This document shows, in pieces, positions 41-56,512 of a stretch of 64,000 bases of DNA; position 1 is the first letter of the stretch; each line of letters begins with the position of its first letter. The notes under the pieces are model-generated. The model searched no databases, was not told the origin of the DNA, and saw only the letters and a list, made by a program, of their open reading frames with translations. The position numbers and the translations under genes are program-made. The DNA comes from Candidatus Methylobacter oryzae (GTDB lineage: Bacteria > Pseudomonadota > Gammaproteobacteria > Methylococcales > Methylomonadaceae), in contig CAMAUL010000005.1 of NCBI GenBank assembly GCA_945861405.1, positions 1,629 through 65,628 of the forward strand, given 5' to 3'.

Positions 41-158
41 AATGGAACACGGATGGCACGGATTAAACAGATAATCACTGATTTAAAAGCGTAAACAAAC
101 TTGGCTCCGACTAAAAATCCGTTTAAATCCGTCCTATCCGTGCCATCCGTGTTCTATT
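41..158. repeat. REP/MITE-like imperfect palindrome, family A
   Basis: Left arm AATGGAACACGGATGGCACGGATTA, right arm CCGTGCCATCCGTGTTCTATT. The same architecture recurs at 33991, 44849, 48644, 54739 (variant) and 56352. Confidence 0.85.
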
Positions 159-33990: not shown

Positions 33991-34092
33991 AATGGAACAC
34001 GGATGACACGGATTAGGCTGATATTCACGGATAAAACATGAAGCAGTTAAATCCGCTTTAATCCGTCTTATCTGTGTCATCCGTGTTCTATT
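33991..34092. repeat. REP family A copy
   Basis: AATGGAACACGGATGACACGGATTAGG ... TATCTGTGTCATCCGTGTTCTATT. Confidence 0.85.
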
Positions 34093-39555: not shown

Positions 39556-39731
39556 CGGCAGTTTTGTTCTGACACGGCCGTCACGTCATGAATATCAATA
39601 AAAAAGCAGATTTATGGCGGGCAGGAAATAAACTTAGTTTATATAGGAAATTAAAGATAGATTTGCAGATAAATCTAATCCATAATGTTTTTGCGGTAAA
39701 TAATTATTATGAAAATATCAGGAGAAACGTT

Positions 39732-40130
39732 ATGGCTTTAATTACTTGGACTGCTGGTCAGTACGGCACAAATGTTGGCTTTGCAGATGATGAACATAAA
39801 ATATTGTTTGATAAACTGAATAAACTGTACGATTTAGCGACAGGCGGGGCGGCGCGCTCAGCAATAGGTGCGCAATTGGATGATTTGATTGGCTATGTCG
39901 TTGGGCATTTTGCTCATGAAGAAAAAGAAATGCAGGCAAAAGGTTATTCCGGCTATGCTCGCCATAAGGATGAGCATGATGCGTTGGTAGGCATTTGCGC
40001 GGGGTTGCAAACAAAATTTCATGCGGGTCAGGCAGAAGTAGACGAAGGCGTTGGTCAATTGGTTAAGGGGTGGTTGGATAGTCACATTCCTAATTTTGAT
40101 ATGGCTTATGCCGATGCTCTAAACAGCTGA
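39732..40130 (+). CDS. bacteriohemerythrin
   Basis: Start at the Met with RBS AGGAGA. Iron ligand motifs DDEHK, HFAHEEKEM, HKDEH and WLDSHIPNFD. Confidence 0.85.
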   Translation: MALITWTAGQYGTNVGFADDEHKILFDKLNKLYDLATGGAARSAIGAQLDDLIGYVVGHFAHEEKEMQAKGYSGYARHKDEHDALVGICAGLQTKFHAGQAEVDEGVGQLVKGWLDSHIPNFDMAYADALNS

Positions 40131-40373: not shown

Positions 40374-41528
40374 GTGAAGAAAACAAAGCAACTGTTTGCA
40401 GGTCTGATCTTAATGGCTTTAGGCCTAGGGACAGCGCAGGCGGAATACACGCTCAATTTAATGAAAGGGGCTACCAAGGTCAGTCATGATATTTATGACT
40501 TGCACATGTTGATCCTATGGATTTGTGTATTTATAGGCATCGGTGTGTTCGGTACGATGTTCTACTCGATTTACCATCATCGTAAATCAAGAGGGCATAA
40601 AGCGGCGCAGTTTCATGAAAATACCACGGTTGAAATCATTTGGACGATTATCCCGACCTTGATTTTGATCGGCATGGCTATTCCGGCCACAAAAGCCATG
40701 ATGGAATTGGATGACGTTCAAGAATCCGAAATGTCCATCAAAGTAACCGGGCATCAATGGAAGTGGGAATATGAATATCTTGATAATGGCATTCATTTTT
40801 TCAGCAGCCTGGATGAAGCCAGTAACAAGGCGCGTCAGGTAGGTTCTGGCATAGATCCTTTTACGGTTGAAAATTACTTGCTGGAAGTCGATAAGCCGTT
40901 AGTGATACCGACTAAAAAGAAAATCCGTTTCGTGTTTACCGCAAAAGACGTAATCCATTCTTGGTGGGTGCCGGATTTGGGCTGGAAAAAAGACGCTAAT
41001 CCCGGCTTTATCAACGAATCATGGACTTCTGTAGACGTCCCGGGAACTTATCGCGGCCAATGTACCGAGCTTTGCGGTAAGGATCATGGCTTTATGCCGA
41101 TTGTTGTGATCGCGATGAATGAGCCCGAGTACAATGCCTGGGTAGAAAAACAAAAATCGGCTGTAGCGGCTGAAGCGGGTTCTGCAAGCAAGCAGTGGGC
41201 TAAAGAAGAATTGATTGCTAAAGGTAAGTCTGTTTACGAGACCAACTGTTCGTCCTGTCATATGGCAGATGGTGCAGGCTTGGCGGGTACCTTCCCGGCC
41301 ATCAAGGCTAGTAAGGTGGTAACCGGCGATATCAATGCTCAAGTTAAGCTAATGTTGGACGGAAAAGGCATGATGCCTGCCTTCGGGAAAATGTTAAGCC
41401 CGGTTGATTTCGCGGCAGTCGTAACCTTTACCCGTAACGGTTTGGGTAATGCAGTGGGCGATTCGATACAGCCTTCAGCCGTTCAGGCGCTGCAATCGGC
41501 AACGCCGGGTGCAGGTAAAAATGAATAA
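40374..41528 (+). CDS. coxB: cytochrome c oxidase subunit II with C-terminal cytochrome c domain
   Basis: CuA site HSWWVP...CTELCGKDHGFMP. C-terminal heme motif CSSCH. Confidence 0.9.
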   Translation: MKKTKQLFAGLILMALGLGTAQAEYTLNLMKGATKVSHDIYDLHMLILWICVFIGIGVFGTMFYSIYHHRKSRGHKAAQFHENTTVEIIWTIIPTLILIGMAIPATKAMMELDDVQESEMSIKVTGHQWKWEYEYLDNGIHFFSSLDEASNKARQVGSGIDPFTVENYLLEVDKPLVIPTKKKIRFVFTAKDVIHSWWVPDLGWKKDANPGFINESWTSVDVPGTYRGQCTELCGKDHGFMPIVVIAMNEPEYNAWVEKQKSAVAAEAGSASKQWAKEELIAKGKSVYETNCSSCHMADGAGLAGTFPAIKASKVVTGDINAQVKLMLDGKGMMPAFGKMLSPVDFAAVVTFTRNGLGNAVGDSIQPSAVQALQSATPGAGKNE

Positions 41529-41582
41529 GCCATTGCGTTCTTATCGATCTAATCTTTTTTATAGTTTCAAGAGGTATAAAAT

Positions 41583-43190
41583 ATGTCTGCTGTAGTCGCT
41601 GAACACGATGATCATCACGATCATGGTCCTGCTAAGGGGCTCTTAAGATGGGTTATTACCACCAACCATAAAGATATCGGTACCTTATATTTGCTGTTTG
41701 CACTGGCGATGTTTTTTGTCGGCGGCTCGATGGCGATGGTTATTCGTGCCGAGTTATTCGAACCGGGCATGCAGTTTGTCAATCCCCAGTTCTTTAATTC
41801 AATGACCACCATGCATGCGTTGGTTATGGTATTCGGCGCAGTTATGCCGGCATTCGTCGGCTTGGCCAACTGGATGATCCCGATGATGATTGGTTCGCCG
41901 GATATGGCGTTGCCGCGCATGAATAACATGAGTTTCTGGTTGTTGGTTGCCGGTGTTTTATTGCTGGCCAGCACCCTATTTATGGAAGGCGGCGCGCCTG
42001 CCAGCGGTTGGACTTTGTATCCGCCATTGGTATTGCAAACAGGAAAAGCCTTGCCTTTTGCGATTTTCTCGGTGCATTTGCTGGGTATCTCGTCAATCTT
42101 GGGCGGGATTAATATCATTGCCACTATTTTCAATATGCGCGCCCCTGGCATGACTTTAATGAAAATGCCGATGTTTGTTTGGACTTGGTTGATTACTGCT
42201 TTCCTGTTGATCGCTATCATGCCGGTTTTCGCAGGCGCAGTGACCATGCTATTAACCGACAAATTCTTCCACACCAGCTTTTTTGATGCGGCGGGCGGCG
42301 GTGACCCTGTTCTGTATCAACATATATTCTGGTTCTTTGGGCATCCTGAAGTTTATGTAATGATTCTGCCGACTTTCGGCGTGGCTTCTACCATCATTCC
42401 GGTGTTTGCGCGCAAACCGCTGTTTGGCTATAGCTCAATGGTTTATGCGACTGCCGCCATTGCCTTTTTGTCATTTATCGTTTGGGCTCACCACATGTTT
42501 ACCGTGGGCATGCCGATAGCAGGCGAGTTGTACTTCATGTACGCAACCATGTTGATTGCAATCCCTACCGGGGTTAAGATTTTCAACTGGACGGCGACCA
42601 TGTGGAAAGGTTCGATGACGTTTGAAACGCCGATGCTGTTTAGTATTGCTTTCGTGGTCTTATTTACGATGGGCGGCTTTACCGGTTTGATGATGGCCGT
42701 AGCGCCGGCTGATTTCCAGTACCACGATACTTACTTTATTGTTGCGCATTTCCATTACACATTGGTTCCCGCTTCCGTGTTTATATTGATGGCTGCCGGT
42801 TATTTTTGGCTGCCTAAATGGACCGGCCATATGTATGATGAGAGAATCGGCCAATTGCATTTCTGGTTGTCGGTGGTATCGGTCAACATCCTGTTTTTCC
42901 CTCAGCATTTTCTGGGGCTTGCCGGAATGCCGCGCAGAATCCCGGATTATGCCGTGCAATTTGCTGATTGGAATATGATTTCCAGTATCGGCGGATTTAT
43001 ATTCGGTGCCAGCCAACTGTTGTTTTTGTATATTGTTATCAATACCATCAAAGGCGGAACCGGCGAAAAAGTAACGGGCGAAGTATGGGAAGATGCTGCC
43101 AAGCACAGCTTGGAATGGACTTTGCCATCACCGCCGCCGTATCATTCATTTACTACGCCACCTACGGTTATACCGACTGAGCATATGTAG
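41583..43190 (+). CDS. ctaD: cytochrome c oxidase subunit I
   Basis: 535 aa. Canonical heme-copper oxidase motifs (WFFGHPEVY, HHMF). Confidence 0.95.
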   Translation: MSAVVAEHDDHHDHGPAKGLLRWVITTNHKDIGTLYLLFALAMFFVGGSMAMVIRAELFEPGMQFVNPQFFNSMTTMHALVMVFGAVMPAFVGLANWMIPMMIGSPDMALPRMNNMSFWLLVAGVLLLASTLFMEGGAPASGWTLYPPLVLQTGKALPFAIFSVHLLGISSILGGINIIATIFNMRAPGMTLMKMPMFVWTWLITAFLLIAIMPVFAGAVTMLLTDKFFHTSFFDAAGGGDPVLYQHIFWFFGHPEVYVMILPTFGVASTIIPVFARKPLFGYSSMVYATAAIAFLSFIVWAHHMFTVGMPIAGELYFMYATMLIAIPTGVKIFNWTATMWKGSMTFETPMLFSIAFVVLFTMGGFTGLMMAVAPADFQYHDTYFIVAHFHYTLVPASVFILMAAGYFWLPKWTGHMYDERIGQLHFWLSVVSVNILFFPQHFLGLAGMPRRIPDYAVQFADWNMISSIGGFIFGASQLLFLYIVINTIKGGTGEKVTGEVWEDAAKHSLEWTLPSPPPYHSFTTPPTVIPTEHM

Positions 43191-43250
43191 GTTGTTGCAA
43201 GCAGGTTGCTTTTTTAAGCAACCTGTTCAGGTAGCGTATCAGGTGAAATA

Positions 43251-43349
43251 ATGAATACCAAACAGAAAAATATTTTGACGGCAGTGATTTTGATTGCAAT
43301 TGCGACCACTATTTATGTTTTGGCAGTGATAAAAGCAGTTTCTCAATGA
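43251..43349 (+). CDS. 32-aa single-TM micro-protein (cytochrome oxidase small assembly protein-like)
   Basis: Not in the ORF track. RBS AGGTGA. Sequence MNTKQKNILTAVILIAIATTIYVLAVIKAVSQ. Its stop overlaps the ctaG start (ATGA). Confidence 0.6.
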   Translation: MNTKQKNILTAVILIAIATTIYVLAVIKAVSQ

Positions 43350-43888
43350 AGGAAGGCGTTAAGCAAAAAAACGCCAAGTTAGTTCGGATATTGGTGTTTG
43401 TTGTACTGGGAATGTTTGGTTTTGGTTATGCTCTGGTTCCGCTTTACGATGTTTTGTGCGAAGTAACAGGGCTTAATGGAAAGGTTGAATCAGCGGCTGT
43501 TAAGGAAGTCAGCTATGAAGTTGATAAAAACAGGGAGATTACCGTAGAATTTATGACTGCGCTGAATGAGGCTACACCGATGGTGTTCCGTTCAGAAATA
43601 AAAAAAATAAAAGTTCATCCGGGCGAATATTATACGGTGAATTTTTATGCGGAAAATAAGACCGATAAAGTAATGGTTGCGCGGGCAATTCCAAGCATTT
43701 CGCCCGGAGCGGCCGCTGAATATTTTAAAAAAACAGAGTGTTTTTGTTTTTCAGAACAGACATTTAAAGCGCGGGAAGGCAGGACTATGCCGGTGCGTTT
43801 TGTGGTAAATCCTGAAATATCCAAGGAATATAAGACAATTACACTTGCGTATACATTTTTTGATAATACTGAAACATCAGTGAAATGA
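43346..43888 (+). CDS. ctaG: cytochrome c oxidase assembly protein CtaG/Cox11
   Basis: CFCF copper-binding motif and an N-terminal TM anchor. Confidence 0.9.
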   Translation: MKEGVKQKNAKLVRILVFVVLGMFGFGYALVPLYDVLCEVTGLNGKVESAAVKEVSYEVDKNREITVEFMTALNEATPMVFRSEIKKIKVHPGEYYTVNFYAENKTDKVMVARAIPSISPGAAAEYFKKTECFCFSEQTFKAREGRTMPVRFVVNPEISKEYKTITLAYTFFDNTETSVK

Positions 43889-43900
43889 GAGAGGAAGGTC

Positions 43901-44764
43901 ATGTCTACAAGTAACGAGTATTACATTCCGCAGAAAGCTACCTGGCCAGTCGTTGGGACGGCTGGTTTGTTGATGATGCTGGCTGGATTTGCGAATTATT
44001 TAAATGGTTCATCTGGCGGTGCGGCCTGGATGGGGTTGGGATTGACTGTCGTCATTATTATGATGGCCGGATGGTTTACGCTTCAGGCTACTGAAAGTGA
44101 GTCAGGCATGTACAGTACGCAGGTAGGTATTTCCTATCGCATGGGCATGATGTGGTTCATCTTTTCAGAGATCATATTTTTTGGGGTGTTCTTTGGCGCA
44201 CTTTGGTATACGCGTAATTTGTCGGTGCCATGGCTGGGCGGGGAAGGCACTAGGGCAGTAACTAAAGAGCTGTTGTGGCCTTCTTTTGAAGCAGTCTGGC
44301 CGACCAATGGCCCCGGTAAAGTCGGCGGCGATTTTGAGGCTATGGGAACCTGGGGCCTGCCTTTTTTAAACACCTTAATTTTATTAACCAGCGGCGTAGC
44401 CTGTACTTGGGCGCATCACGGGTTGCTCACTAAAAACCGCGATCAGTTAATCAAAGGCTTGATGGCTACCGTGGGTTTGGGCTTCTTGTTCGTGACTTTT
44501 CAGGCCATCGAATATCATGAAGCTTATACCGAAATGGGCTTAACTCTGGGGTCAGGCATTTACGGCTCTACCTTTTTCATGTTGACCGGCTTTCACGGAT
44601 TCCATGTCTGCGTGGGCGCGATTATCCTGAGTGTAGTGCTGTTTCGCAGTTGGAAAGGCCACTTCAAGCCGGAAAATCATTTCGCTTTTGAAGCGGCCGC
44701 TTGGTATTGGCATTTTGTTGACGTGGTATGGTTAGGACTATTTGTATTCGTTTATGTAATTTAA
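43901..44764 (+). CDS. coxC: cytochrome c oxidase subunit III
   Basis: 287 aa, seven TM segments. Motifs FFMLTGFHGFHV and WYWHFVDVVW. Confidence 0.9.
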   Translation: MSTSNEYYIPQKATWPVVGTAGLLMMLAGFANYLNGSSGGAAWMGLGLTVVIIMMAGWFTLQATESESGMYSTQVGISYRMGMMWFIFSEIIFFGVFFGALWYTRNLSVPWLGGEGTRAVTKELLWPSFEAVWPTNGPGKVGGDFEAMGTWGLPFLNTLILLTSGVACTWAHHGLLTKNRDQLIKGLMATVGLGFLFVTFQAIEYHEAYTEMGLTLGSGIYGSTFFMLTGFHGFHVCVGAIILSVVLFRSWKGHFKPENHFAFEAAAWYWHFVDVVWLGLFVFVYVI

Positions 44765-44781
44765 TCGAAACAGCCGTACCG

Positions 44782-44817
44782 AAAAAAGCGCTGTCTCACA
44801 GACAGCGCTTTTTTTTT
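44782..44817 (+). terminator. rho-independent terminator
   Basis: AAAAAAGCGCTGTC-TCACA-GACAGCGCTTTTTTTTT. Confidence 0.8.
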
Positions 44818-44848
44818 GTCGGAACGGTTGGAATTTAGCATTTGAAAA

Positions 44849-44958
44849 AATAGAACACGGATGACACGGATAGGGCGGATAATCACTGATTAAAAAACTT
44901 GGTCTTAGGTTTAAAAATCCGTTTTAATCAGTTCTATCCGTGTCATCTGTGTTCCATT
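44849..44958. repeat. REP family A copy
   Basis: AATAGAACACGGATGACACGGATAGG ... TATCCGTGTCATCTGTGTTCCATT. Confidence 0.85.
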
Positions 44959-44969
44959 ATTAATAGTTT

Positions 44970-45218
44970 TTATTTGACTGGAGCAGTTGCTGTTTGATGC
45001 ATTCGGGCACCTAGTCCGTGAGGTGTGAATAGGCCGGTTGCTAAGGCGATAAAAATGAATATGAATAACACAATCGACAGCGTGATGCGAAAAGTCAGCG
45101 CCTTGACTGTTTTTTCGGATTGCTCCTGAGTCTTGTGTTTAACCAGATGAAATAGCGCAGAACCCAGGCTGATAATTATCAGGATAAAGGCGATAATAAC
45201 GATGCTTTTTATAATCAT
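44970..45218 (-). CDS. twin-TM small protein (DUF2909-like)
   Basis: 82 aa with two hydrophobic helices. This position between coxC and surf1 is typical for the family. Confidence 0.65.
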   Translation of the reverse strand: MIIKSIVIIAFILIIISLGSALFHLVKHKTQEQSEKTVKALTFRITLSIVLFIFIFIALATGLFTPHGLGARMHQTATAPVK

Positions 45219-45310
45219 GAATGTAGTTATGGTGATGGCTAAGGTTTTGGTATTCTCGGTTATTTAAGTGCCTGTGCCAATAGGGTAAAGAAAAAAGCAG
45301 ATGCGAGTCA

Positions 45311-46033
45311 ATGAAGTTTAAAATCATTCCAAGTTTAGTTTATGTGTTCCTGCTGCCGGTGTTGCTGGCGTTGGGCATGTGGCAATTAGACCGATCAGAA
45401 CAAAAACGGGCGTTACTTAAGTTGCAAGAGCAAGCCGCCACGACTGATATTATGCATTTGTCTGCGGCTATTGACGACAAGACCGATGCGCTAAGATACC
45501 GGCAAGTCGAGGTTACTGGGCGTTACGATGTGGCGCACCAGCTCTTGATAGATAATCAAATCAGCGGCGGCAAGGCCGGTTATTTTGTGTTGACACCGTT
45601 GGTATTGACCGGGGAAACCAGGGCTGTTTTGGTGAACAGAGGCTGGATTCCGCAAAACCCGGATCGGACGGTAGTTCCTGATTTGCAGATTAACAAGGTA
45701 CAAGCAACTATTAGCGGACGGATTAATCATTTTCCCAGTGTTGGTATAAAATTAGCGGGAGCCGAAATTCCGACAGCAGGTTGGCCCTCGGTAGTGCAAG
45801 TGGTTGATAGTAATGTGTTGGCTAAAAAGCTCGGCTATCCATTATTTCAATTCCAGCTTGAGTTGGACAAAGAGTTACCCGATGGATTTAAACGGGAATG
45901 GCGCACATCAACCATAATGCTACCTGAACAACATACGGCCTATGCAATTCAGTGGTTTGCATTGGCATTGACACTAACGATACTGTTTATTTGGTATAGC
46001 TTTAAAAACAATGATGCACAATCAAAAGAATAA
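45311..46033 (+). CDS. SURF1 family cytochrome oxidase biogenesis protein
   Basis: N-terminal 'LG.WQL.R...K', two terminal TM segments, and cox-cluster context. Confidence 0.8.
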   Translation: MKFKIIPSLVYVFLLPVLLALGMWQLDRSEQKRALLKLQEQAATTDIMHLSAAIDDKTDALRYRQVEVTGRYDVAHQLLIDNQISGGKAGYFVLTPLVLTGETRAVLVNRGWIPQNPDRTVVPDLQINKVQATISGRINHFPSVGIKLAGAEIPTAGWPSVVQVVDSNVLAKKLGYPLFQFQLELDKELPDGFKREWRTSTIMLPEQHTAYAIQWFALALTLTILFIWYSFKNNDAQSKE

Positions 46034-46610
46034 AAATCATCTATTAATCCTGGCTATTTTCGGAATGTCTGTGATTCCGTTTCTAATCGCATGGGGACTC
46101 AAAGAATATCCTCAGTTGTTAAACGGGCAAACCAATAATGGACAGTTAATAACGCCGCCACAGACGACCGAGCGCACAGACCTGACCGGTTTCGATCAGT
46201 TTTCGATAGATAATATGTCAGAGCTTAACGGGCACTGGCTGTTGGTTAACGTCATTCCCAATGGCGAGTGCAATGAGGCTTGTATTGAGGCCTTACATAA
46301 AACCAAACAAATACGCTTGATGTTAAGTAAGGAATTGACCCGTACGCGCCGGATAGTGCTGGTATTAAAAGAAGTGACTCCGAAAACCGCGAGCAAATGG
46401 TGGGAAGACGACCAGACCTTATTAAGAGTCAAACCCAATGACGCCATTGCCAAAAAAATTGCTGCACTCAGGCAAGGCAACATTCCTGACGGGATGCTGT
46501 TGTTAATGGATCCTCTGGGTAATTTGATGATGCAGTATGAGCCGGGTTTCGATCCTTACAATGTAAAAAGCGATCTGATGCACCTTTTGCGAATCTCACA
46601 AATCGGATAG
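46011..46610 (+). CDS. membrane-anchored hypothetical protein of the cox biogenesis cluster
   Basis: 199 aa. N-terminal TM segment. CNEAC pair in a thioredoxin-fold-like context. Overlaps the genes on both sides. Confidence 0.5.
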   Translation: MMHNQKNKNHLLILAIFGMSVIPFLIAWGLKEYPQLLNGQTNNGQLITPPQTTERTDLTGFDQFSIDNMSELNGHWLLVNVIPNGECNEACIEALHKTKQIRLMLSKELTRTRRIVLVLKEVTPKTASKWWEDDQTLLRVKPNDAIAKKIAALRQGNIPDGMLLLMDPLGNLMMQYEPGFDPYNVKSDLMHLLRISQIG

Positions 46611-48628
46611 TGGAAAATAAAATGTTTAAAAAAATAACTCTCTTTAGCGTTGTCTTAGCTTTAATAGTTATCGTAGCAGGTTCTTATGTCCGGTTATCCG
46701 GGGCGGGGTTGGGCTGCCCTGATTGGCCTGGATGCTATGGGCAGGCCATCCCATTCGACTTCGCTCAGGCCAGGATCAGCGAGCATGCCGATTTTAAGGC
46801 GCAGGCGGCCAAAGCTTTTCCGGGGCAAACGCTTGATTTAGCTAAAGCCTGGAAGGAAATGAGTCATCGTTATCTGGCGGCAACCTTAGGCGTGGCTATC
46901 TTGTTGCTGGCGCTGCTTTCGTGGCGCGAACAACAAAACCGAGTGGCAGTAATTACGGGATCATTGGGTTCGGTTATCTTGGTAGGCTTGCAGGCGGCAT
47001 TAGGCATGTGGGCCGTAAAATTGCATGTGATGCCGATTGTGGTAACCGGGCATTTGTTGCTGGGCATGATGACGTTCTGGCTGCTGTTCTGGCTTTATTT
47101 GCGGGTTAAGCCAAAAAGTTCGCTGCCAACAGTACGCAGCAATAGTTTGGCGGTGTTTGCCCGTGTTGCAATGGCCGTGCTGTTTTTAGATATTGTGTTA
47201 GGCGGCTGGGTCAGCGCCAACTATGCCGCTTTAGCTTGCTCTGGTTTTCCGCAGTGCAATGATTCTTGGTGGCCTAAAGCCGATTATCAAACGGCGTTGA
47301 ACTTATTTAATGGATTAAGTACCGGTTATACCGGCGTGATCGCATTCGATGCGCAGGTTGCCGCAAACTGGTTGCATCGGGTTGGTGCGCTGGTTAGTTT
47401 TGTCGTGCTGACTTTGTTGATGTTGAATGCCACCTCGGCGCATCATCCAAAACCGCTCAGACGGGCGGGTTTATGGCTGAGTGTGCTGCTGTTGGCGCAG
47501 ATCGGCTCAGGGATTATCGGCATTAAGCTCGGGTCGCCGTTATGGGCGGCGATGGCTCATAATATGTTTGCCGCCTTGTTGATGTTGCCGTTGATCGCCA
47601 TCAGTTTTTATAGTCGGCAGGCTTACGGCGAAGAGATGCAACCTGCCGTAGAGGTCGAGCTAAAACCGGAAGATGTCACGGAAGAGGCTTATTTAATACC
47701 TGAACCCGAGTCGCTGTACCTGCGCCTTAAAACACAGTTACAGCGTACCCGTTCCGGGCTTAGCGGAGTGCTGGCGCATATTCCTCTGGGATCAAAAGGA
47801 ATAGACAAAGATTTACTGGAAGAAATTGAAGCCAGCTTGTTAATGGCTGATATAGGCGTTGATGCGACCACCACCATCATTAAGCGTCTGACTGAAAGCG
47901 TTGAGCGGCACCAGCTCAATGATGGCGAAGCTTTATCGGCCGCCTTAAAGCAGGAATTGCTGAGCATGCTACAGCCGTGCAGCCAGAACCTGCATATTCC
48001 GAAACAGGACAAGCCATTTGTTATTCTGGTCGTCGGCGTCAATGGGGCGGGTAAAACCACCACCATCGGTAAGTTGGCGAAACGGCTGCAATCGCAAGGC
48101 CATAGCGTGATGCTGGCCGCCGGGGATACGTTCAGGGCGGCGGCGGTCGAGCAATTGCAAACCTGGGGTGAGCGCAATAATATTCATGTGGTGGCCCAGC
48201 ATACCGGGGCCGATTCGGCATCGGTCATTTATGACGGCGTACAATCCGCTCAGGCGAAAGGCATCGATGTGTTGATAGCCGATACCGCCGGACGATTGCA
48301 TACCAAGTCCAACCTGATGGATGAGTTGAAAAAAGTAAAACGGATAATCAGCAAGCTGGATGAAACAGCGCCTCATGAAGTGCTGCTGGTGTTGGATGCC
48401 GGAACCGGACAAAATGCCTTGTCGCAGGCAAGACTGTTTAACGAAACTGTGGCGTTGACCGGCTTGGCTCTGACTAAACTTGATGGCACGGCAAAAGGCG
48501 GTATTATTTTCGCGTTGGCCAAACAGTTCGGCATCCCCATTCGCTTTATAGGGATAGGCGAAGGTATTGATGATCTGCAGGATTTTGATGCAGATGCTTT
48601 TGTAAATGCATTGTTTGTTAAAGACTAG
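46610..48628 (+). CDS. ftsY: heme A synthase (CtaA/COX15) fused in frame to the SRP receptor FtsY
   Basis: aa 1-335 are polytopic with GLGCPDWPGCYG and CtaA-type His/Cys. aa ~365-672 are the FtsY NG domain (GVNGAGKTTTIGKLA, DTAGR, TKLDGTAKGG). No stop codon lies between. An internal ATG is at 47636. Confidence 0.75.
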   Translation: MENKMFKKITLFSVVLALIVIVAGSYVRLSGAGLGCPDWPGCYGQAIPFDFAQARISEHADFKAQAAKAFPGQTLDLAKAWKEMSHRYLAATLGVAILLLALLSWREQQNRVAVITGSLGSVILVGLQAALGMWAVKLHVMPIVVTGHLLLGMMTFWLLFWLYLRVKPKSSLPTVRSNSLAVFARVAMAVLFLDIVLGGWVSANYAALACSGFPQCNDSWWPKADYQTALNLFNGLSTGYTGVIAFDAQVAANWLHRVGALVSFVVLTLLMLNATSAHHPKPLRRAGLWLSVLLLAQIGSGIIGIKLGSPLWAAMAHNMFAALLMLPLIAISFYSRQAYGEEMQPAVEVELKPEDVTEEAYLIPEPESLYLRLKTQLQRTRSGLSGVLAHIPLGSKGIDKDLLEEIEASLLMADIGVDATTTIIKRLTESVERHQLNDGEALSAALKQELLSMLQPCSQNLHIPKQDKPFVILVVGVNGAGKTTTIGKLAKRLQSQGHSVMLAAGDTFRAAAVEQLQTWGERNNIHVVAQHTGADSASVIYDGVQSAQAKGIDVLIADTAGRLHTKSNLMDELKKVKRIISKLDETAPHEVLLVLDAGTGQNALSQARLFNETVALTGLALTKLDGTAKGGIIFALAKQFGIPIRFIGIGEGIDDLQDFDADAFVNALFVKD

Positions 48629-48643
48629 AAAATCGTTTATAAA

Positions 48644-48752
48644 AATGGAACACGGATGACACGGATTAGGCGGATAATCACTGATTTAAAAGTGTGTAGC
48701 ATTTTTAAAAATCCGCGTAAATCAGTCCAATCTGTGTCATCCGTGTTCTATT
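48644..48752. repeat. REP family A copy
   Basis: AATGGAACACGGATGACACGGATTAGGCGGATAATCACTGATTTAAAAG ... TCTGTGTCATCCGTGTTCTATT. Confidence 0.85.
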
Positions 48753-48804
48753 AATCATAATAATCAGCGTTCTATTTTGGGCTGTGGGGTAGTACAAAAA
48801 ACCT

Positions 48805-49497
48805 ATGTTAAAGTTCGATAATGTCAGTATGAGATACCCCGGAGCGGGTGATGTGTTGCGTAATGTCAGCTTTCATCTGGAGCGTGGCGAAATGGCTTTT
48901 CTGACAGGGCATTCAGGGGCAGGAAAAAGCACGTTATTGAAATTGATTGCGCTGATTGAGCGGTGCAGCCGGGGGCAGGTTTTCTTGGACGGTAAAAACC
49001 TTAATCTAGCCACGGATAGACAAGTTCCTTACATGCGCAGGAAAGTAGGTCTGATTTTTCAGGATTACAAACTGCTGCAGGACAGGACGGTTTTTGATAA
49101 TGTGGCATTGCCGCTAGTGATAGCCGGTTACGGACATAATGAGGTTTCTCGAAGAGTACGGGCAGCATTGGACAAAGTCGGATTATTAACCAAAGAAAAA
49201 AAATATCCTGCGGTCTTATCCGGTGGCGAGCAGCAGCGGGTCGGTATTGCCCGTGCGGTGGTTAATAAGCCGCCGATGATTCTGGCCGATGAGCCGACCG
49301 GAAACCTTGATCCTGAACTGTCCGCTGAAATTATGCATTTGTTTGAGCAGTTCCAACAGGTCGGCGTCACTATACTGATTGCCTCACATGATATTTCATT
49401 GATTGCCCAGATGGATCATCGGATATTAAAGCTGGATCATGGTCAGCTGGTTGACGAGTTTGGCGAGTTAGCTGAGGTAAATGATGAAGCACGTTAA
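48805..49497 (+). CDS. ftsE: cell division ATP-binding protein FtsE
   Basis: Walker [10 protein letters not shown], signature LSGGEQQR, Walker B ILADEPTG. Follows ftsY. Confidence 0.9.
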
Positions 49498-50497
49498 TAA
49501 AAGGCCGGTTAGACCGGCTAAGCCGGTTAAGCAAGAGCCGCGCTGGCAAACCAAAGTTTCCGGCGGCAATTTTGTCGATAAATTTCACGCTTATCATAAC
49601 CTTCACGCACATGCATTGTTTTCAAGCCTTGGAAGACTGCTAGCCTCAAGGTTCTCTTTGGTAATGACCGTCGTTGTTTTGGCGATAGCCATTTCATTAG
49701 CTACAGGCTTTTATATCCTGGTGGCAAACCTCCAACAATTGGCAGGCAATTTGGAAGCCAGCAATCAAATATCATTGTTTCTTAAAGATGATATTTCCGA
49801 GGGCAGGGCAAACAAGTTTGTAGGCAGTATCAGGCAAAATCCCAACATTCAGGATGTAAAACTGATTACCAAGGAGCAGGCGTTGGCAGAGTTTAAAGCC
49901 TACAGCGGCTTCGGCGAAGCCATAAAAGCCCTGGAAAAAAATCCGCTACCGGTTGTGATTCAGGTGTTGCCCAAAAATTCATTGAAAAACGAGCAGGCGA
50001 TTAAGACGATGCTTGATGATTTTAACCGGTCGGCGGAAGTGGATTTTGCCCAGATGGATATGCAATGGGTTAAGCGCCTAAAATCCATTATGGAAGTGGC
50101 GCGGCGCGGCGTTTTCTTATTAAGCTTGTTGCTGGGCGCGGGCGTGTTGCTTATTACCGCCACCACTATACGCTTGGAATTGTATAACCGCCGAGATGAA
50201 GTGGTGATCGCCAAACTGGTGGGGGCGACCAATAGTTTCATTCAAAGGCCGTTTTTGTACAGCGGTTTCTGGATAGGCTTTTTTTCCGGCGTGACGGCAT
50301 GGTTTATAGTCACCGTGATCATGCTGATTTTAAAGCAGCCGGTCGAAACGCTTTCCAGGCTATATGAGGGCGCTTTTCATGTGTTGTTTTTGGGCTTTAC
50401 CGAAACAATGGCCTTGTTGCTTATCTCGTCAGTGTTGGGCGTAATGGGTTCATGGATAGTGCTACATTTTCAGCTCCAACAATTAAAACCCGAGTAG
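49481..50497 (+). CDS. ftsX: cell division permease-like protein FtsX
   Basis: 338 aa with four TM segments and a large periplasmic loop. Overlaps ftsE. Confidence 0.85.
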   Translation: MMKHVNKRPVRPAKPVKQEPRWQTKVSGGNFVDKFHAYHNLHAHALFSSLGRLLASRFSLVMTVVVLAIAISLATGFYILVANLQQLAGNLEASNQISLFLKDDISEGRANKFVGSIRQNPNIQDVKLITKEQALAEFKAYSGFGEAIKALEKNPLPVVIQVLPKNSLKNEQAIKTMLDDFNRSAEVDFAQMDMQWVKRLKSIMEVARRGVFLLSLLLGAGVLLITATTIRLELYNRRDEVVIAKLVGATNSFIQRPFLYSGFWIGFFSGVTAWFIVTVIMLILKQPVETLSRLYEGAFHVLFLGFTETMALLLISSVLGVMGSWIVLHFQLQQLKPE

Positions 50498-50567
50498 AAA
50501 AAAATTATTAGCACTCTTGTGTGCGGAGTGCTAGAATTTGAAAAAAATTCTTACATGAGGGGTTTCA

Positions 50568-51425
50568 ATGAGTAATGCATTAGCTTTACCCGTTAATTTA
50601 TCGGTCGGAACATTCGATGCCTATTTAAATGTCGTCAGGCAAATGCCTAAATTGACAGTAGAACAGGAACGCGAGTTAGCCTTAAAATTCAGGGATAACG
50701 GCGATTTGGAAGCCGCACGCGAGTTGGTGATGACCAATCTGCGCTTCGTGATTCACGTCGCCAGAGGTTACAGCGGTTATGGCTTGTCGATGCCGGATAT
50801 TATCCAGGAAGGCAATGTCGGCTTGATGAAGGCTGTTAAGCGCTTTGATCCTGATGTCGGCGTACGCTTGGTTTCTTTCGCCGTGCATTGGATTAAAGCC
50901 GAAATTCACGAGTATGTGATCAAAAACTGGGGCATTGTAAAAGTTGCGACCACCAAGGCGCAACGTAAACTGTTTTTTAACCTGCGTAAATCCAAGCGGG
51001 ATATAGGCTGGTTATCCAATGACGAGGCGGTGGCGATAGCCAACGATCTCGATGTCGATGTGAGTATCGTTTACGAAATGGAAAAACGTTTGGGAGGCAG
51101 GGACATGTCGTTTGATATGCCGGTCGATGAAGCGGCGGAAGAAAGCTATGTGGCTCCGGCCAGCTATCTTCATCAGCACGGTGCAGATCCTGCGGTACTG
51201 CTTGAGAATTCGGACTGGGTAGGGCATGAGCAGGATTTATTGGCCGATGCGATGGCCGATCTGGACGAACGCAGCCTGGATATTCTGTCAAGTCGCTGGC
51301 TGATGGATAAAAAAGCCACCTTGCATGAACTTGCCGAACGCTACAATGTGTCGGCTGAGAGAATCAGGCAGTTGGAACAGAATGCGATGAAAAAATTGAG
51401 AACAGCGGTTGAATTGGCTGCCTGA
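50568..51425 (+). CDS. rpoH: RNA polymerase sigma-32
   Basis: RpoH box QRKLFFNLRK and sigma70 regions 2-4. Classic ftsYEX-rpoH synteny. Confidence 0.95.
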   Translation: MSNALALPVNLSVGTFDAYLNVVRQMPKLTVEQERELALKFRDNGDLEAARELVMTNLRFVIHVARGYSGYGLSMPDIIQEGNVGLMKAVKRFDPDVGVRLVSFAVHWIKAEIHEYVIKNWGIVKVATTKAQRKLFFNLRKSKRDIGWLSNDEAVAIANDLDVDVSIVYEMEKRLGGRDMSFDMPVDEAAEESYVAPASYLHQHGADPAVLLENSDWVGHEQDLLADAMADLDERSLDILSSRWLMDKKATLHELAERYNVSAERIRQLEQNAMKKLRTAVELAA

Positions 51426-51524: not shown

Positions 51525-51761
51525 TTAAACCGGCCTGAGTATATCCAGAACCGCTTGCGCCTGTTTCGCGGTTTCAAGGCCGAGATTAGTCAGATAGCCT
51601 CCGTCATCCTGCGTGATCAAGCCTTTTTCGAATAGACGATGGGTCGCGGCAATGGTTTCCGGCGTGGCGGTTTTATGTACCTTGATTCCTTCCAGGGTGG
51701 TGGTCAGATCGTAGCGAACCAGAATGTTCAGTTCTTCTACAATATCTTGGGTATAGGGCAT
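51525..51761 (-). CDS. small conserved protein (TIGR02647-like, from memory)
   Basis: 78 aa. '...EGIKVH....PETIAA..RL.EKGLITQ.DGGYLT.LG...A' is a conserved gammaproteobacterial pattern. Confidence 0.55.
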   Translation of the reverse strand: MPYTQDIVEELNILVRYDLTTTLEGIKVHKTATPETIAATHRLFEKGLITQDDGGYLTNLGLETAKQAQAVLDILRPV

Positions 51762-56351: not shown

Positions 56352-56512
56352 ATGGGAACACGGATGACACTGATTTAGACCGATTTAAACGGATTTTAAA
56401 AAACAAGGATCCAAATTCGTAATGCACTTTATAAAATATGGGTTCAGCCATATTTTATAAAGTGCTTTTTATCAGTGTTTATCAGTCAAATCCGTGTCAT
56501 CCGTGTTCTATT
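56352..56512. repeat. REP family A copy with a nested 18-bp perfect hairpin
   Basis: Arms ATGGGAACACGGATGACACTGAT and ATCCGTGTCATCCGTGTTCTATT. The inner stem GCACTTTATAAAATATGG (56424-56441) pairs with CCATATTTTATAAAGTGC (56448-56465). Confidence 0.8.

What the first reader, a model, noticed from the sequence alone, without database searches (positions are those of the whole stretch)
46610..48628. Single 672-aa ORF fusing heme A synthase (CtaA/COX15) to the SRP receptor FtsY
- Residues 1 to ~335 are a polytopic CtaA-type protein (GLGCPDWPGCYG, conserved His/Cys).
- An acidic linker follows (GEEMQPAVEVELKPEDVTEEAYLIPEPES).
- After that comes a complete FtsY N and G domain (GVNGAGKTTTIGKLA, DTAGR, TKLDGTAKGG).
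- No stop codon separates the two parts.
- ftsE-ftsX-rpoH follow as in canonical ftsYEX loci.

Possible explanations:
- A true fusion in which the 8-TM heme A synthase replaces the FtsY membrane-tethering A domain. This could couple SRP targeting to oxidase biogenesis.
- Two products, with FtsY initiated at the internal ATG at 47636.
- Loss of a stop codon, or an assembly error.
Basis: partly seen in the sequence, partly recalled or inferred. Interest (0 to 1): 0.7.

Follow-up and report, generated by a model that had tools for sequence, protein, structure and literature searches.

The report
Heme A synthase fused to FtsY
In Methylobacter and related methane-oxidising bacteria, an ancient DNA inversion joined the gene for an eight-helix membrane enzyme (heme A synthase) to the front of the gene for the cell's protein-targeting receptor FtsY, so the receptor is most likely built permanently into the membrane.

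Summary
Window 46610-48628 (+) is one uninterrupted 672-codon ORF. It encodes a full-length CtaA/COX15 domain (res 9-326), a roughly 30-residue acidic linker, and a complete FtsY (lipid-binding helix plus N and G domains).

It is not an assembly error. The same architecture occurs in 136 full-length distinct protein clusters (41-94% identity), including cultured Methylobacter luteus, M. marinus and M. tundripaludum, Methylovulum and Methylosarcina assemblies, and other Methylococcales MAGs.

Stand-alone CtaA proteins end exactly where the linker begins. The internal Met343 is not conserved.

Origin: in unfused gamma- and betaproteobacteria the order is ctaA> ctaB> <rpoH <ftsX <ftsE <ftsY M16>. 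One fused genome shows ctaA~ftsY> ftsE> ftsX> rpoH> <ctaB M16>, and the ctaB|M16 junction survives in Methylobacter. A single inversion explains all of this.

Function (inferred): a polytopic, permanently membrane-anchored SRP receptor. In this genome all canonical CtaA catalytic residues are present, so the protein is probably bifunctional. Family-wide, FtsY motifs are invariant, while 24 of 136 members lack a His of the CtaA N-terminal (substrate) bundle. The anchor therefore looks like the conserved role.

This is a new variant of a known kind, and I found no description of it in the literature I could search. Coupling of SRP targeting to oxidase assembly is untested.

The parts
46610..48628 (+). 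Whole ctaA~ftsY fusion ORF (672 codons plus stop). The likely true start is the ATG at 46622 (Met5).
   Evidence: Orthologues begin at MFRK.
46634..47614 (+). CtaA/COX15 heme A synthase domain (res 9-335), class B/type 1.1. It has eight TM helices with N-in/C-in topology and Cys pairs C36/C42 and C210/C216 in the two long periplasmic loops. It carries E83, H86 and H148 (N bundle) and H256 and H317 (C bundle, heme b ligands).
   Evidence: Pfam full-length match. PDB sequence hits to 8aw5 and 6a2j. Residue table. Hydropathy and positive-inside analysis. Eight helices in the AF2 model. Stand-alone CtaA in 73 loci ends at the equivalent of res 337-400, median 343.
47615..47704 (+). Acidic, Pro-containing linker (res 336-365). 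It is predicted to be disordered and is hypervariable in length (22-54 aa) and in sequence. It contains the non-conserved Met343 (ATG 47636-47638).
   Evidence: Mean pairwise identity 44% (close set) and 17% (distant set), against 93% and 76% for the G domain. pLDDT about 30. Met present in only 4 of 34 linkers, at different positions.
47705..47767 (+). alphaN1-type amphipathic membrane-targeting helix at the start of FtsY (PESLYLRLKTQLQRTRSGLSG). It corresponds to the E. coli FtsY FFARLKRSLLKTK region.
   Evidence: The phmmer alignment to full-length E. coli FtsY covers query 344-671 and chain 171-495. Conserved at 87% and 50%. Helix 369-380 in the model. Its role in E. coli is described in PMC5533587.
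47768..48004 (+). FtsY N domain (four-helix bundle, res 387-465).
   Evidence: PF02881 at res 394-450. PDB hits.
48005..48625 (+). FtsY G domain (SRP-type GTPase, res 466-672). P-loop GVNGAGKTT lies at 48035-48061, with DTFRAAA, DTAGR and TKLD also present.
   Evidence: PF00448. TIGR00064 above cutoff. DTFRAAA, DTAGR and TKLD identical in 136 of 136 fusions. Foldseek top hits are E. coli FtsY NG.
40374..46610 (+). Upstream aa3-type oxidase cluster: coxB 40374-41528, coxA 41583-43190, cox11 43346-43888, coxC 43901-44764, DUF2909 44970-45218 (minus strand), SURF1 45311-46033, and a PA0111-like thioredoxin-like membrane protein 46011-46610 whose stop overlaps the GTG of the fusion ORF.
   Evidence: The same order is seen in fused and unfused loci.
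48805..51425 (+). Canonical partners of ftsY: ftsE 48805-49497, ftsX 49481-50497 and rpoH 50568-51425. Together with ftsY they form the inverted block.
   Evidence: Synteny.
48648..48748 (.). Palindromic repeat element of about 100 nt inserted between the fusion gene and ftsE. It is one of five copies in the window and is not part of the fusion itself.

Best explanation
This is a genuine, vertically inherited gene fusion of Methylococcales (type I methanotrophs). It encodes one polypeptide in which a complete eight-helix CtaA heme A synthase domain is the N-terminal integral-membrane anchor of the cell's canonical SRP receptor FtsY.

Shown:
- One ORF with both domains full length.
- The architecture is conserved in 136 full-length protein clusters and in cultured isolates.
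- The CtaA part ends where free-standing CtaA ends.
- CtaA topology (N-in/C-in) puts FtsY in the cytoplasm.
- A variable acidic linker is followed by a conserved alphaN1 lipid-binding helix and an essentially invariant NG GTPase.
- The gene sits in the canonical ftsY-ftsE-ftsX-rpoH position.

Origin (strongly supported by synteny): the ancestral order was cox..ctaA> ctaB> <rpoH <ftsX <ftsE <ftsY M16>. A single inversion of the [ctaB..ftsY] block placed the 5' end of ftsY against the 3' end of ctaA and left ctaB head-to-head with the M16 peptidase genes.

Mechanism (inferred):
- The receptor is permanently tethered by the polytopic domain.
- The flexible linker lets NG reach SRP-ribosome complexes and SecYEG.
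- The retained alphaN1 helix keeps the lipid-triggered activation switch.
- In this genome the CtaA part carries every canonical catalytic residue and lies at the end of an aa3 oxidase cluster, so it probably still makes heme A. That would make the protein bifunctional.
- Across the family, the N-bundle catalytic residues are lost repeatedly while FtsY never varies. The function that keeps the fusion intact therefore appears to be anchoring of FtsY, not heme A synthesis.
For: ORF and domains.

Conservation: all 120 top clusters carry PF02628 plus PF00448 at 70-93% identity, with names from Methylobacter and Methylosarcina. Seventeen further full-length representatives lie at 41-59% identity (alignment), and every later hit is FtsY only. 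Isolates include M. luteus, M. marinus and BBA5.1. The ORF is continuous in L001-L004, L036, L081, L083 and L085.

Boundary: stand-alone CtaA in 73 loci stops at the equivalent of res 337-400, median 343.

Topology: 8 TM helices, K/R-rich cytoplasmic loops, Cys pairs in the periplasmic loops. The AF2 model shows eight long helices, a disordered stretch at 338-368 and a helix at 369-380.

Domain rates: distant-set identity is CtaA 26%, linker 17%, MTS 50%, N 42% and G 76%. DTFRAAA, DTAGR and TKLD are identical in 136 of 136.

Inversion: unfused L037, L039, L049, L051 and L067 show ctaA+ ctaB+ rpoH- ftsX- ftsE- ftsY-, followed by M16a+ where the locus reaches that far (L039, L049, L051, L067). 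L032 is the same without ctaB. Fused L085 shows ctaA~ftsY+ ftsE+ ftsX+ rpoH+ ctaB- M16a+ M16b+ rsmD+ coaD+. The ctaB|M16 head-to-head junction is also found in M. luteus, Methylobacter sp. and Methylococcus geothermalis.

[quoted passage not shown] 1997, as cited in PMC2780400). Tethered FtsY that retains alphaN1 keeps targeting specificity (PMC5533587).

Catalytic residues in the window protein: E83, H86, H148, H256, H317, C36/C42 and C210/C216 are all present. Their roles are described in PMC8239418 and PMC7327177.
Against: No expression, proteomic or biochemical data were available, so a single 74-kDa product is inferred and not shown.

'Sole receptor' and 'sole heme A synthase' therefore rest on synteny only. 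The only direct negative is that no stand-alone ctaA lies beside ctaB in L088-L090.

The AF2 model has low confidence (mean pLDDT 63.6, pTM 0.47) and says nothing reliable about contacts between the domains.

Monophyly of the fused proteins in an NG-domain NJ tree is recovered, but with only 18 of 100 bootstraps.

If the TM domain were only an anchor, the C-bundle heme b ligands should also decay. They are kept in 135 of 136 members, which remains unexplained.
Confidence: 0.75

Rival explanations
1. The ORF yields two separate proteins. Either FtsY is translated independently from an internal start (ATG 47636, Met343, or another codon), or the fusion protein is cleaved in the linker. The cell would then contain an ordinary CtaA and an ordinary short FtsY.
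For: A product starting at Met343 would contain the linker, alphaN1 and NG, which resembles the minimal functional E. coli NG+1 construct (PMC5533587). One promoter-like match lies at 47585-47614, just upstream. The linker is predicted to be disordered and therefore accessible to proteases. From my own knowledge, E. coli FtsY is reported to be cleaved within its N-terminal A domain (Weiche et al. 2008); I did not check this here.
Against: Met343 is Leu in the 94%-identical P0001. Only 4 of 34 linkers contain any Met, and at different positions. The bases before 47636 (GGCGAAGAG) place the purine-rich run directly against the ATG with no spacer. Promoter-like hits in the region are at chance level (8 found against 5.6 +/- 2.6 expected). 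If separate products were the selected state, a stop codon and a start codon should have re-evolved somewhere among 136 diverged lineages, yet all keep one frame.
Confidence: 0.13
2. The fusion is functionally coupled. CtaA holds the SRP receptor at the site of oxidase assembly, so that CoxA is inserted co-translationally where heme A is delivered. Alternatively, the heme b-binding half reports heme, O2 or redox status to the targeting machinery.
For: The gene lies at the end of the cox-cox11-surf1 cluster in nearly all fused loci. The C-bundle His pair and the ECL3 Cys pair are kept in 135 and 134 of 136 members respectively, even where the N bundle has lost its canonical residues. This is more conservation than a mere anchor would need.
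Against: The neighbourhood of cox/ctaA and ftsYEX-rpoH pre-dates the fusion and occurs in unfused bacteria in convergent orientation, so adjacency is inherited and not evidence of coupling. N-bundle residues needed for catalysis in B. subtilis are missing in 24 of 136 members and in 10 of 17 deep lineages. In L085 the coxBAC genes are no longer adjacent to the fusion gene. FtsY serves all SRP substrates, and the fused gene occupies the canonical operon position. Retention of the C bundle can also be explained by fold or oligomer stability, since the C bundle forms the trimer core in Aquifex HAS (PMC7327177).
Confidence: 0.1
3. The ORF is an artefact: a sequencing or assembly error, or a strain-specific loss of a stop codon that joined two adjacent genes.
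For: None beyond the a priori rarity of such fusions.
Against: The same single ORF is found in independent isolate genomes, MAGs and metagenome assemblies from NCBI, JGI, ENA and Logan. It is continuous in eight independently assembled loci at 28-87% CtaA identity. In unfused relatives ctaA and ftsY are not tandem neighbours, so a simple stop-codon loss cannot produce the fusion.
Confidence: 0.01

Closest known systems
E. coli-type FtsY (A-N-G SRP receptor; TIGR00064; PDB 2yhs, 1fts, 2qy9)
   Same: It has a complete NG core at about 60-65% identity to E. coli NG, with all GTPase motifs and the alphaN1 amphipathic helix at the start of N. It sits in the ftsY-ftsE-ftsX(-rpoH) operon position.
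   Different: There is no long acidic A domain and no N-terminal alphaA1 lipid-binding motif. Instead, about 335 residues of polytopic membrane enzyme precede a linker of about 30 residues. Attachment would be permanent rather than peripheral and dynamic.
Membrane-integral SRP receptors: engineered TM-anchored E. coli FtsY-NG (Zelazny et al. [quoted passage not shown]
   Same: All share the principle that the NG GTPase is held at the membrane by a transmembrane element. Such tethered receptors are functional in vivo (PMC2780400; PMC5533587).
   Different: Here the anchor is a natural eight-helix enzyme domain with its own heme sites, not one or two hydrophobic helices, a separate subunit or a laboratory construct. 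I know the Streptomyces and SRbeta cases only from citations in the papers I read and did not analyse them here.
CtaA/COX15 heme A synthase, class B / type 1.1 (B. subtilis CtaA, PDB 6a2j; Aquifex HAS, 8aw5)
   Same: It has eight TM helices as two four-helix bundles, four His residues, the Glu57 equivalent and both extracytoplasmic Cys pairs. It lies at the end of a cox-cox11-surf1 cluster.
   Different: It carries a 330-residue cytoplasmic C-terminal extension (FtsY). ctaB is not adjacent and is absent from the 64-kb window. In sister lineages the N-bundle residues are replaced.
Known CtaA fusions (CtaA-CtaB, listed in PMC8239418 Table 1; also L012 here)
   Same: In both, CtaA is fused through its cytoplasmic C-terminus to the product of a neighbouring gene.
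   Different: The CtaB partner belongs to the same pathway and the fusion arises by joining tandem genes. The FtsY partner belongs to an unrelated pathway and the join arose by inversion. The FtsY fusion is not listed in that survey.

Membership tests
FtsY / SRP receptor (NCBIfam TIGR00064, Pfam PF02881+PF00448) | The whole-protein score is above the curated equivalog cutoff. | tested here: met
   TIGR00064 scores 372 bits against a cutoff of 260.7. The Ffh model scores 228, below its cutoff of 473.
FtsY / SRP receptor (NCBIfam TIGR00064, Pfam PF02881+PF00448) | An N-domain helical bundle is followed by an SRP-type G domain with G1-G5 motifs and the insertion-box DTFRAAA. | tested here: met
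   PF02881 at 394-450 and PF00448 at 469-669 covering profile 1-195 of 196. GVNGAGKTT, DTFRAAA, DTAGR and TKLD are present and conserved in 136 of 136 fusions.
FtsY / SRP receptor (NCBIfam TIGR00064, Pfam PF02881+PF00448) | An amphipathic alphaN1 membrane-targeting helix lies at the A/N junction. | tested here: met
   The alignment to full-length E. coli FtsY starts at chain residue 171 and covers the FFARLKRSLLKTK region. The model has a helix at 369-380. The region is conserved at 87% and 50%. Lipid binding itself was not tested.
FtsY / SRP receptor (NCBIfam TIGR00064, Pfam PF02881+PF00448) | The gene sits in the canonical genomic position upstream of ftsE-ftsX. | tested here: met
   ftsE, ftsX and rpoH follow directly.
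FtsY / SRP receptor (NCBIfam TIGR00064, Pfam PF02881+PF00448) | GTP-dependent complex formation with Ffh/4.5S RNA, and support of co-translational targeting. | not testable with these tools
   This needs biochemistry or complementation of an FtsY-depletion strain.
FtsY / SRP receptor (NCBIfam TIGR00064, Pfam PF02881+PF00448) | It is the only ftsY in the genome. | not tested
CtaA/COX15 heme A synthase (Pfam PF02628; class B/type 1.1) | A full-length match to the family profile above the gathering score. | tested here: met
   236.6 bits against 29.9, covering profile 3-319 of 322 in one stretch. The alphaproteobacterial equivalog NF045570 is not reached (43.9 against 550), as expected for a gammaproteobacterial type 1 protein.
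CtaA/COX15 heme A synthase (Pfam PF02628; class B/type 1.1) | Eight TM helices forming two four-helix bundles, with both termini cytoplasmic. | tested here: met
   Hydropathy and positive-inside analysis. Eight long helices in the AF2 model. That model is low confidence, and Foldseek listed only FtsY hits in its top 50.
CtaA/COX15 heme A synthase (Pfam PF02628; class B/type 1.1) | Four conserved His residues (B. subtilis H60, H123, H216, H278) and Glu57. | tested here: met
   The window protein has E83, H86, H148, H256 and H317 (pairwise alignment to 6a2j). This is not met in 24 of 136 family members for the N-bundle His residues.
CtaA/COX15 heme A synthase (Pfam PF02628; class B/type 1.1) | A Cys pair in ECL1 (needed for activity in B. 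subtilis) and a Cys pair in ECL3. | tested here: met
   C36/C42 and C210/C216 are present. Their role is described in PMC8239418.
CtaA/COX15 heme A synthase (Pfam PF02628; class B/type 1.1) | Genomic association with heme O synthase ctaB and an aa3-type oxidase. | tested here: inconclusive
   The aa3 cluster lies directly upstream. ctaB is absent from the 64-kb window. In Methylobacter it lies elsewhere, beside the M16 genes.
CtaA/COX15 heme A synthase (Pfam PF02628; class B/type 1.1) | Conversion of heme O to heme A. | not testable with these tools
   This needs heme analysis or complementation of a ctaA mutant.
Integral-membrane SRP receptors (TM-anchored FtsY) | Transmembrane segment(s) covalently N-terminal to a functional NG domain, with NG on the cytoplasmic side. 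| tested here: met
   Eight TM helices, C-in topology, and NG downstream. The anchor type (a polytopic enzyme) differs from the described cases.

The most novel reading that the evidence does not exclude
The CtaA-like domain may be more than an anchor. Its heme b-binding C bundle is kept in 135 of 136 members, even where the catalytic N bundle has lost its canonical residues. It could make the SRP receptor of these methanotrophs a heme-, O2- or redox-responsive receptor, or an oxidase-assembly-coupled one. Co-translational insertion of respiratory or methane-oxidation membrane proteins would then be tuned by heme status or located at heme A delivery sites. If the domain trimerises like Aquifex HAS, this would happen at a trivalent receptor hub.
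Probability: 0.1. Interest if true: 0.85.

Novelty: new variant of a known kind. Interest (0 to 1): 0.55.

Why it matters
Whether the bacterial SRP receptor must cycle between cytosol and membrane has been argued for decades, from cell fractionation and from engineered constructs. Here nature has run the experiment. A whole order of bacteria has most likely lived for a long time with an FtsY that is covalently built into the membrane through an eight-helix protein, yet it keeps the alphaN1 switch helix and an invariant GTPase.

The case also shows cleanly how a single inversion can fuse genes from unrelated pathways. It further shows exaptation: an enzyme domain kept as a membrane anchor while its active site loses its canonical residues in some lineages.

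There is a practical consequence as well. The protein is annotated only as 'FtsY' or 'fused signal recognition particle receptor'. The heme A synthase of Methylobacter, or its absence, is therefore invisible in genome-based reconstructions of methanotroph respiration.

Tried and rejected
- The genome-collection scan with a 13-sequence CtaA alignment failed because no stretch was conserved enough. It was repeated with 5 sequences.
- The AlphaFold model built from the shallow 17-sequence alignment was low confidence (pLDDT 63.6). Foldseek against the PDB returned only FtsY chains in its top 50. Neither gives structural confirmation of the CtaA fold beyond helix counting, and neither informs on contacts between the domains.
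- The first NJ tree script timed out. The faster version recovered the fused proteins as one bipartition, but with only 18 of 100 bootstraps. A single origin therefore rests mainly on synteny.
- Naming the nearest unfused FtsY representatives (P0140-P0152) gave no useful taxon names. Their sequences are ordinary acidic-A-domain FtsYs, and two are chimeric or fragmentary.
- Promoter and terminator consensus scans in 45200-49000 were at chance level.
- Five literature searches found no description of the fusion: FtsY + heme A synthase; FtsY + COX15; FtsY + Methylobacter; SRP receptor + gene fusion + polytopic; and FtsY + NG domain + integral membrane + fused. Zelazny 1997 itself is not held and is cited through PMC2780400.
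- I considered and rejected three ideas: a stop-codon read-through or frameshift artefact, a duplicate extra ftsY copy (the gene sits in the canonical operon), and simple tandem-gene fusion (the genes are convergent in unfused relatives).


Full report
**1.

Window 46610-48628 (+) is a single open reading frame of 672 codons with no internal stop.
- Pfam places a full-length COX15-CtaA domain at residues 9-326 (profile 3-319 of 322, 236.6 bits). It places SRP54_N at 394-450 and the SRP54-type GTPase at 469-669.
- The NCBIfam FtsY equivalog TIGR00064 scores 372 bits against a cutoff of 260.7.
- Against solved structures, residues 344-671 align to full-length E. coli FtsY residues 171-495. The alignment therefore begins about 25 residues before the alphaN1 helix and runs through NG.
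- The N-terminal part aligns to Aquifex and B. subtilis heme A synthases.
- The gene is preceded by coxB, coxA, cox11, coxC, DUF2909 (opposite strand), SURF1 and a PA0111-like thioredoxin-like membrane protein. It is followed by ftsE, ftsX and rpoH.
- Most orthologues start at MFRK, equivalent to the window ATG at 46622. The GTG at 46610, which overlaps the upstream stop codon, may or may not be the real start.

**2. The fusion is real and conserved**

- A search of 5.8 billion clustered proteins returned 120 top clusters. All are 598-677 aa (mostly about 620-677), all carry both Pfam domains, and they are 70-93% identical to the window protein. Where named, they come from Methylobacter tundripaludum, M. 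svalbardensis, Methylobacter spp. and Methylosarcina.
- An exhaustive HMMER scan of 1.84 billion 50%-identity representatives found 17 further full-length fusions, at 41-59% identity in the alignment, plus some fragments. Everything after them was FtsY only.
- Named members include Methylococcales and Methylococcaceae MAGs, Methylovulum, and the cultured M. luteus, M. marinus and Methylobacter sp. BBA5.1. One submitter annotated a member as 'cytochrome oxidase assembly family protein/cell division protein FtsY'.
- The reading frame is continuous in eight independently assembled loci whose CtaA part is only 28-87% identical to the window's.
- An assembly error or a private stop-codon loss is therefore excluded.

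**3. Anatomy**

- Hydropathy and the positive-inside rule give eight TM helices: 9-27, 87-105, 112-134, 138-161, 180-208, 258-276, 287-305 and 313-331.
- The N-terminus and the short loops 106-111, 162-174 and 277-286 are rich in K/R. The two Cys pairs lie in the long loops 28-86 and 209-257. This gives an N-in/C-in topology, which puts everything after residue 331 in the cytoplasm.
- A low-confidence AlphaFold model (pLDDT 63.6) shows eight long helices, a disordered stretch at 338-368 and a short helix at 369-380.
- Stand-alone CtaA proteins in 73 related loci terminate at the equivalent of window residue 337-400, median 343. The CtaA moiety is therefore complete, and the junction lies exactly at its natural C-terminus.
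- The linker (336-365) is acidic and contains Pro. It varies from 22 to 54 residues and is the least conserved segment, at 44% mean pairwise identity among close orthologues and 17% among distant ones.
- By comparison, the following alphaN1-type helix is conserved at 87% and 50%, the N domain at 79% and 42%, and the G domain at 93% and 76%.
- FtsY in unfused relatives with the same neighbourhood has only 102-163 residues from its first Met to the P-loop. The distance from the end of CtaA to the P-loop here is 140 residues. CtaA was thus placed in front of an almost complete, naturally short-A FtsY.

**4. How the fusion arose**

I scanned one genome per GTDB species with a CtaA-domain alignment and mapped the window's proteins onto the 80 loci returned.
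- Of 75 unfused loci, 62 have ctaB directly downstream of ctaA. Thirteen also show rpoH on the opposite strand within 6 kb.
- In L037, L039, L049, L051 and L067 the order is ctaA(+) ctaB(+) rpoH(-) ftsX(-) ftsE(-) ftsY(-). M16 peptidase (+) follows in L039, L049, L051 and L067, where the locus extends that far. L032 shows the same order without ctaB.
- One fused genome (L085, GCA_041158225.1) has ctaA~ftsY(+) ftsE(+) ftsX(+) rpoH(+) ctaB(-) M16a(+) M16b(+) rsmD(+) coaD(+).
- That is precisely the ancestral order after inversion of the block [ctaB rpoH ftsX ftsE ftsY].
- The distal scar of that inversion is ctaB head-to-head with M16a-M16b-rsmD-coaD. It also survives in M. luteus, in another Methylobacter and in Methylococcus geothermalis, although later rearrangements have separated it from rpoH there.
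- In the window itself, ctaB, M16 and rsmD are absent from all 64 kb.
- An NJ tree of the NG domain recovers the fused proteins as one group, but bootstrap support is weak at 18 of 100. The shared synteny is the stronger argument for a single origin.

**5. What the protein most likely does**

The NG part is the canonical FtsY by score, by motifs and by operon position. Its GTPase motifs DTFRAAA, DTAGR and TKLD are identical in all 136 full-length fusions examined. [quoted passage not shown] 1997, as cited in PMC2780400). It also shows that surface-tethered FtsY retaining alphaN1 keeps targeting specificity, whereas FtsY lacking alphaN1 does not (PMC5533587).

I therefore infer that this protein is a permanently membrane-anchored SRP receptor. 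The disordered linker would give NG the reach it needs. The conserved alphaN1 helix would retain the lipid-dependent activation step.

The CtaA part of the window protein has every residue considered important in B. subtilis CtaA:
- the equivalents of Glu57, His60 and His123 in the N bundle (E83, H86, H148);
- the heme b ligands, equivalents of His216 and His278 (H256, H317);
- both Cys pairs (roles described in PMC8239418 and PMC7327177).

With an aa3-type oxidase cluster immediately upstream, it is probably still an active heme A synthase. This is inference, and I put it at about 0.6-0.7.

**6. What the family-wide pattern adds**

- Allowing +/-2 residues of alignment slack, His86 or His148 is missing in 24 of 136 fusions and in 10 of the 17 deep representatives. 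This rises to 12 of 17 if loss of the ECL1 Cys pair is counted.
- The variants include M. luteus, M. marinus and BBA5.1 (H86Y, E83Q). They also include a Methylovulum lineage lacking three of the four His residues and the ECL3 Cys pair, and a lineage in which Pfam no longer detects the CtaA domain at all.
- The aa3 cluster is still intact directly upstream in several of these.
- Whatever makes heme A there, the fusion has been kept. The simplest reading is that FtsY has become dependent on this anchor.
- A caveat applies. Natural CtaA variants with substitutions at these positions are known (PMC8239418), so 'non-canonical' does not prove 'inactive'.
- One observation remains unexplained. The C-bundle His pair is retained in 135 of 136 members and the ECL3 Cys pair in 134 of 136. 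This may reflect a need for heme b for folding or oligomerisation, since the C bundle forms the trimer core in Aquifex HAS. It may instead reflect a real heme-linked function.

**7. Rival explanations**

- Independent translation of FtsY from Met343 is unlikely as a conserved mechanism. The residue is Leu in a 94%-identical orthologue, and only 4 of 34 linkers contain any Met, at different positions. Promoter-like matches are at background level.
- Proteolytic separation in the linker cannot be excluded with these tools.
The adjacency of the two gene sets pre-dates the fusion, and the N-bundle changes argue against a requirement for heme A synthesis. The conserved heme b half keeps a small probability alive.

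**8. Novelty**

- TM-anchored SRP receptors are known, as are CtaA fusions with CtaB. One CtaA-CtaB fusion, L012, turned up here.
- Five literature searches, pairing FtsY or SRP receptor with heme A synthase, COX15, Methylobacter, gene fusion/polytopic, or NG domain/integral membrane/fused, found no description of a CtaA-FtsY protein.
- A detailed survey of CtaA variants lists only CtaB fusions.
- Databases label the protein simply as FtsY. 'Fused signal recognition particle receptor' is, to my knowledge, the generic KEGG name for FtsY; it is also attached to the unfused 359-aa FtsY P0146.
- I rate this as a new variant of a known kind. It is moderately interesting for SRP biology, for methanotroph respiration annotation, and as an example of fusion by inversion followed by exaptation.

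**9. Limits**

- There are no expression or protein data.
- No whole-genome check for second copies of ftsY or ctaA was possible. The only direct negative is that no stand-alone ctaA lies beside ctaB in L088-L090.
- The structure model is low confidence.
- The phylogenetic support for a single origin is weak.
- The taxonomic range rests on submitter names, mostly from MAGs.

Noticed in passing
window 45-154, 33995-34088, 44853-44954, 48648-48748, 56356-56508: Five copies of a palindromic intergenic element of about 100 nt (136-153 nt for the copy at 56356-56508), with terminal inverted repeats GAACACGGATGACACGGAT. There are 10 arm matches against 0.01 expected. The copy between the fusion gene and ftsE folds as an RNA hairpin of -52.4 kcal/mol (z = -10.7). 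That copy is absent from the orthologous loci L001 and L002, where the ftsY-ftsE gap is about 10 nt. The element looks like a MITE/REP-type repeat that inserted recently, and it could affect ftsY-ftsE co-transcription.
   Followed up: partly
window 46011-46610 (+); the same position in about 60 of the 80 related loci: A 199-aa PA0111/PP_0108-family thioredoxin-like membrane protein (PF26971) lies immediately upstream of ctaA, in both fused and unfused genomes. In the window its stop codon overlaps the GTG of the fusion ORF. It is a candidate redox partner for the periplasmic Cys pairs of CtaA. I did not investigate this.
   Followed up: no
L012:6001-7860: In an uncultured gammaproteobacterium, ctaA runs in frame into ctaB (a 314-aa tail after the CtaA match, and a CtaB match at 62% identity). 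This is a CtaA-CtaB fusion of the kind already listed in PMC8239418.
   Followed up: partly
A2 and /scratch/all.aln; L081, L083, L087: The CtaA moiety changes asymmetrically. N-bundle His residues are lost in 24 of 136 fusions, while the C-bundle heme b ligands are kept in 135 of 136. Lineages with non-canonical N bundles (M. luteus group, Methylovulum) still have an intact aa3 oxidase cluster upstream. The source of their heme A is unknown.
   Followed up: partly
window 39588-40130 (+); L083:2842-3240: A hemerythrin-domain gene sits just upstream of coxB, both in the window and in a distant fused genome. This is a possible O2-binding accessory of the oxidase cluster in these methanotrophs.
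   Followed up: no
window 37699-39555 (+); L087:1169-3013: A 618-aa ORF with no Pfam match lies upstream of the hemerythrin/cox cluster. A 614-aa gene with no Pfam hit occupies a similar position in the M. luteus-group locus.
   Followed up: no
window 40374-41528 compared with L081:3381-4862, L083:3476-4978, L087:3528-4961: CoxB carries C-terminal cytochrome c domains (caa3-like subunit II). The window ORF is 384 aa with one detected cytochrome c region. Related genomes encode 477-500 aa with two such regions. This could be a real difference or a start-codon call issue.
   Followed up: no
window 51525-51761 (-): A small DUF5669-family gene lies convergent to rpoH in the window, L001, L081 and L087. 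It marks the conserved right-hand boundary of the ftsYEX-rpoH block in the Methylobacter and Methylovulum loci examined. L085 has ctaB at this position instead.
   Followed up: partly
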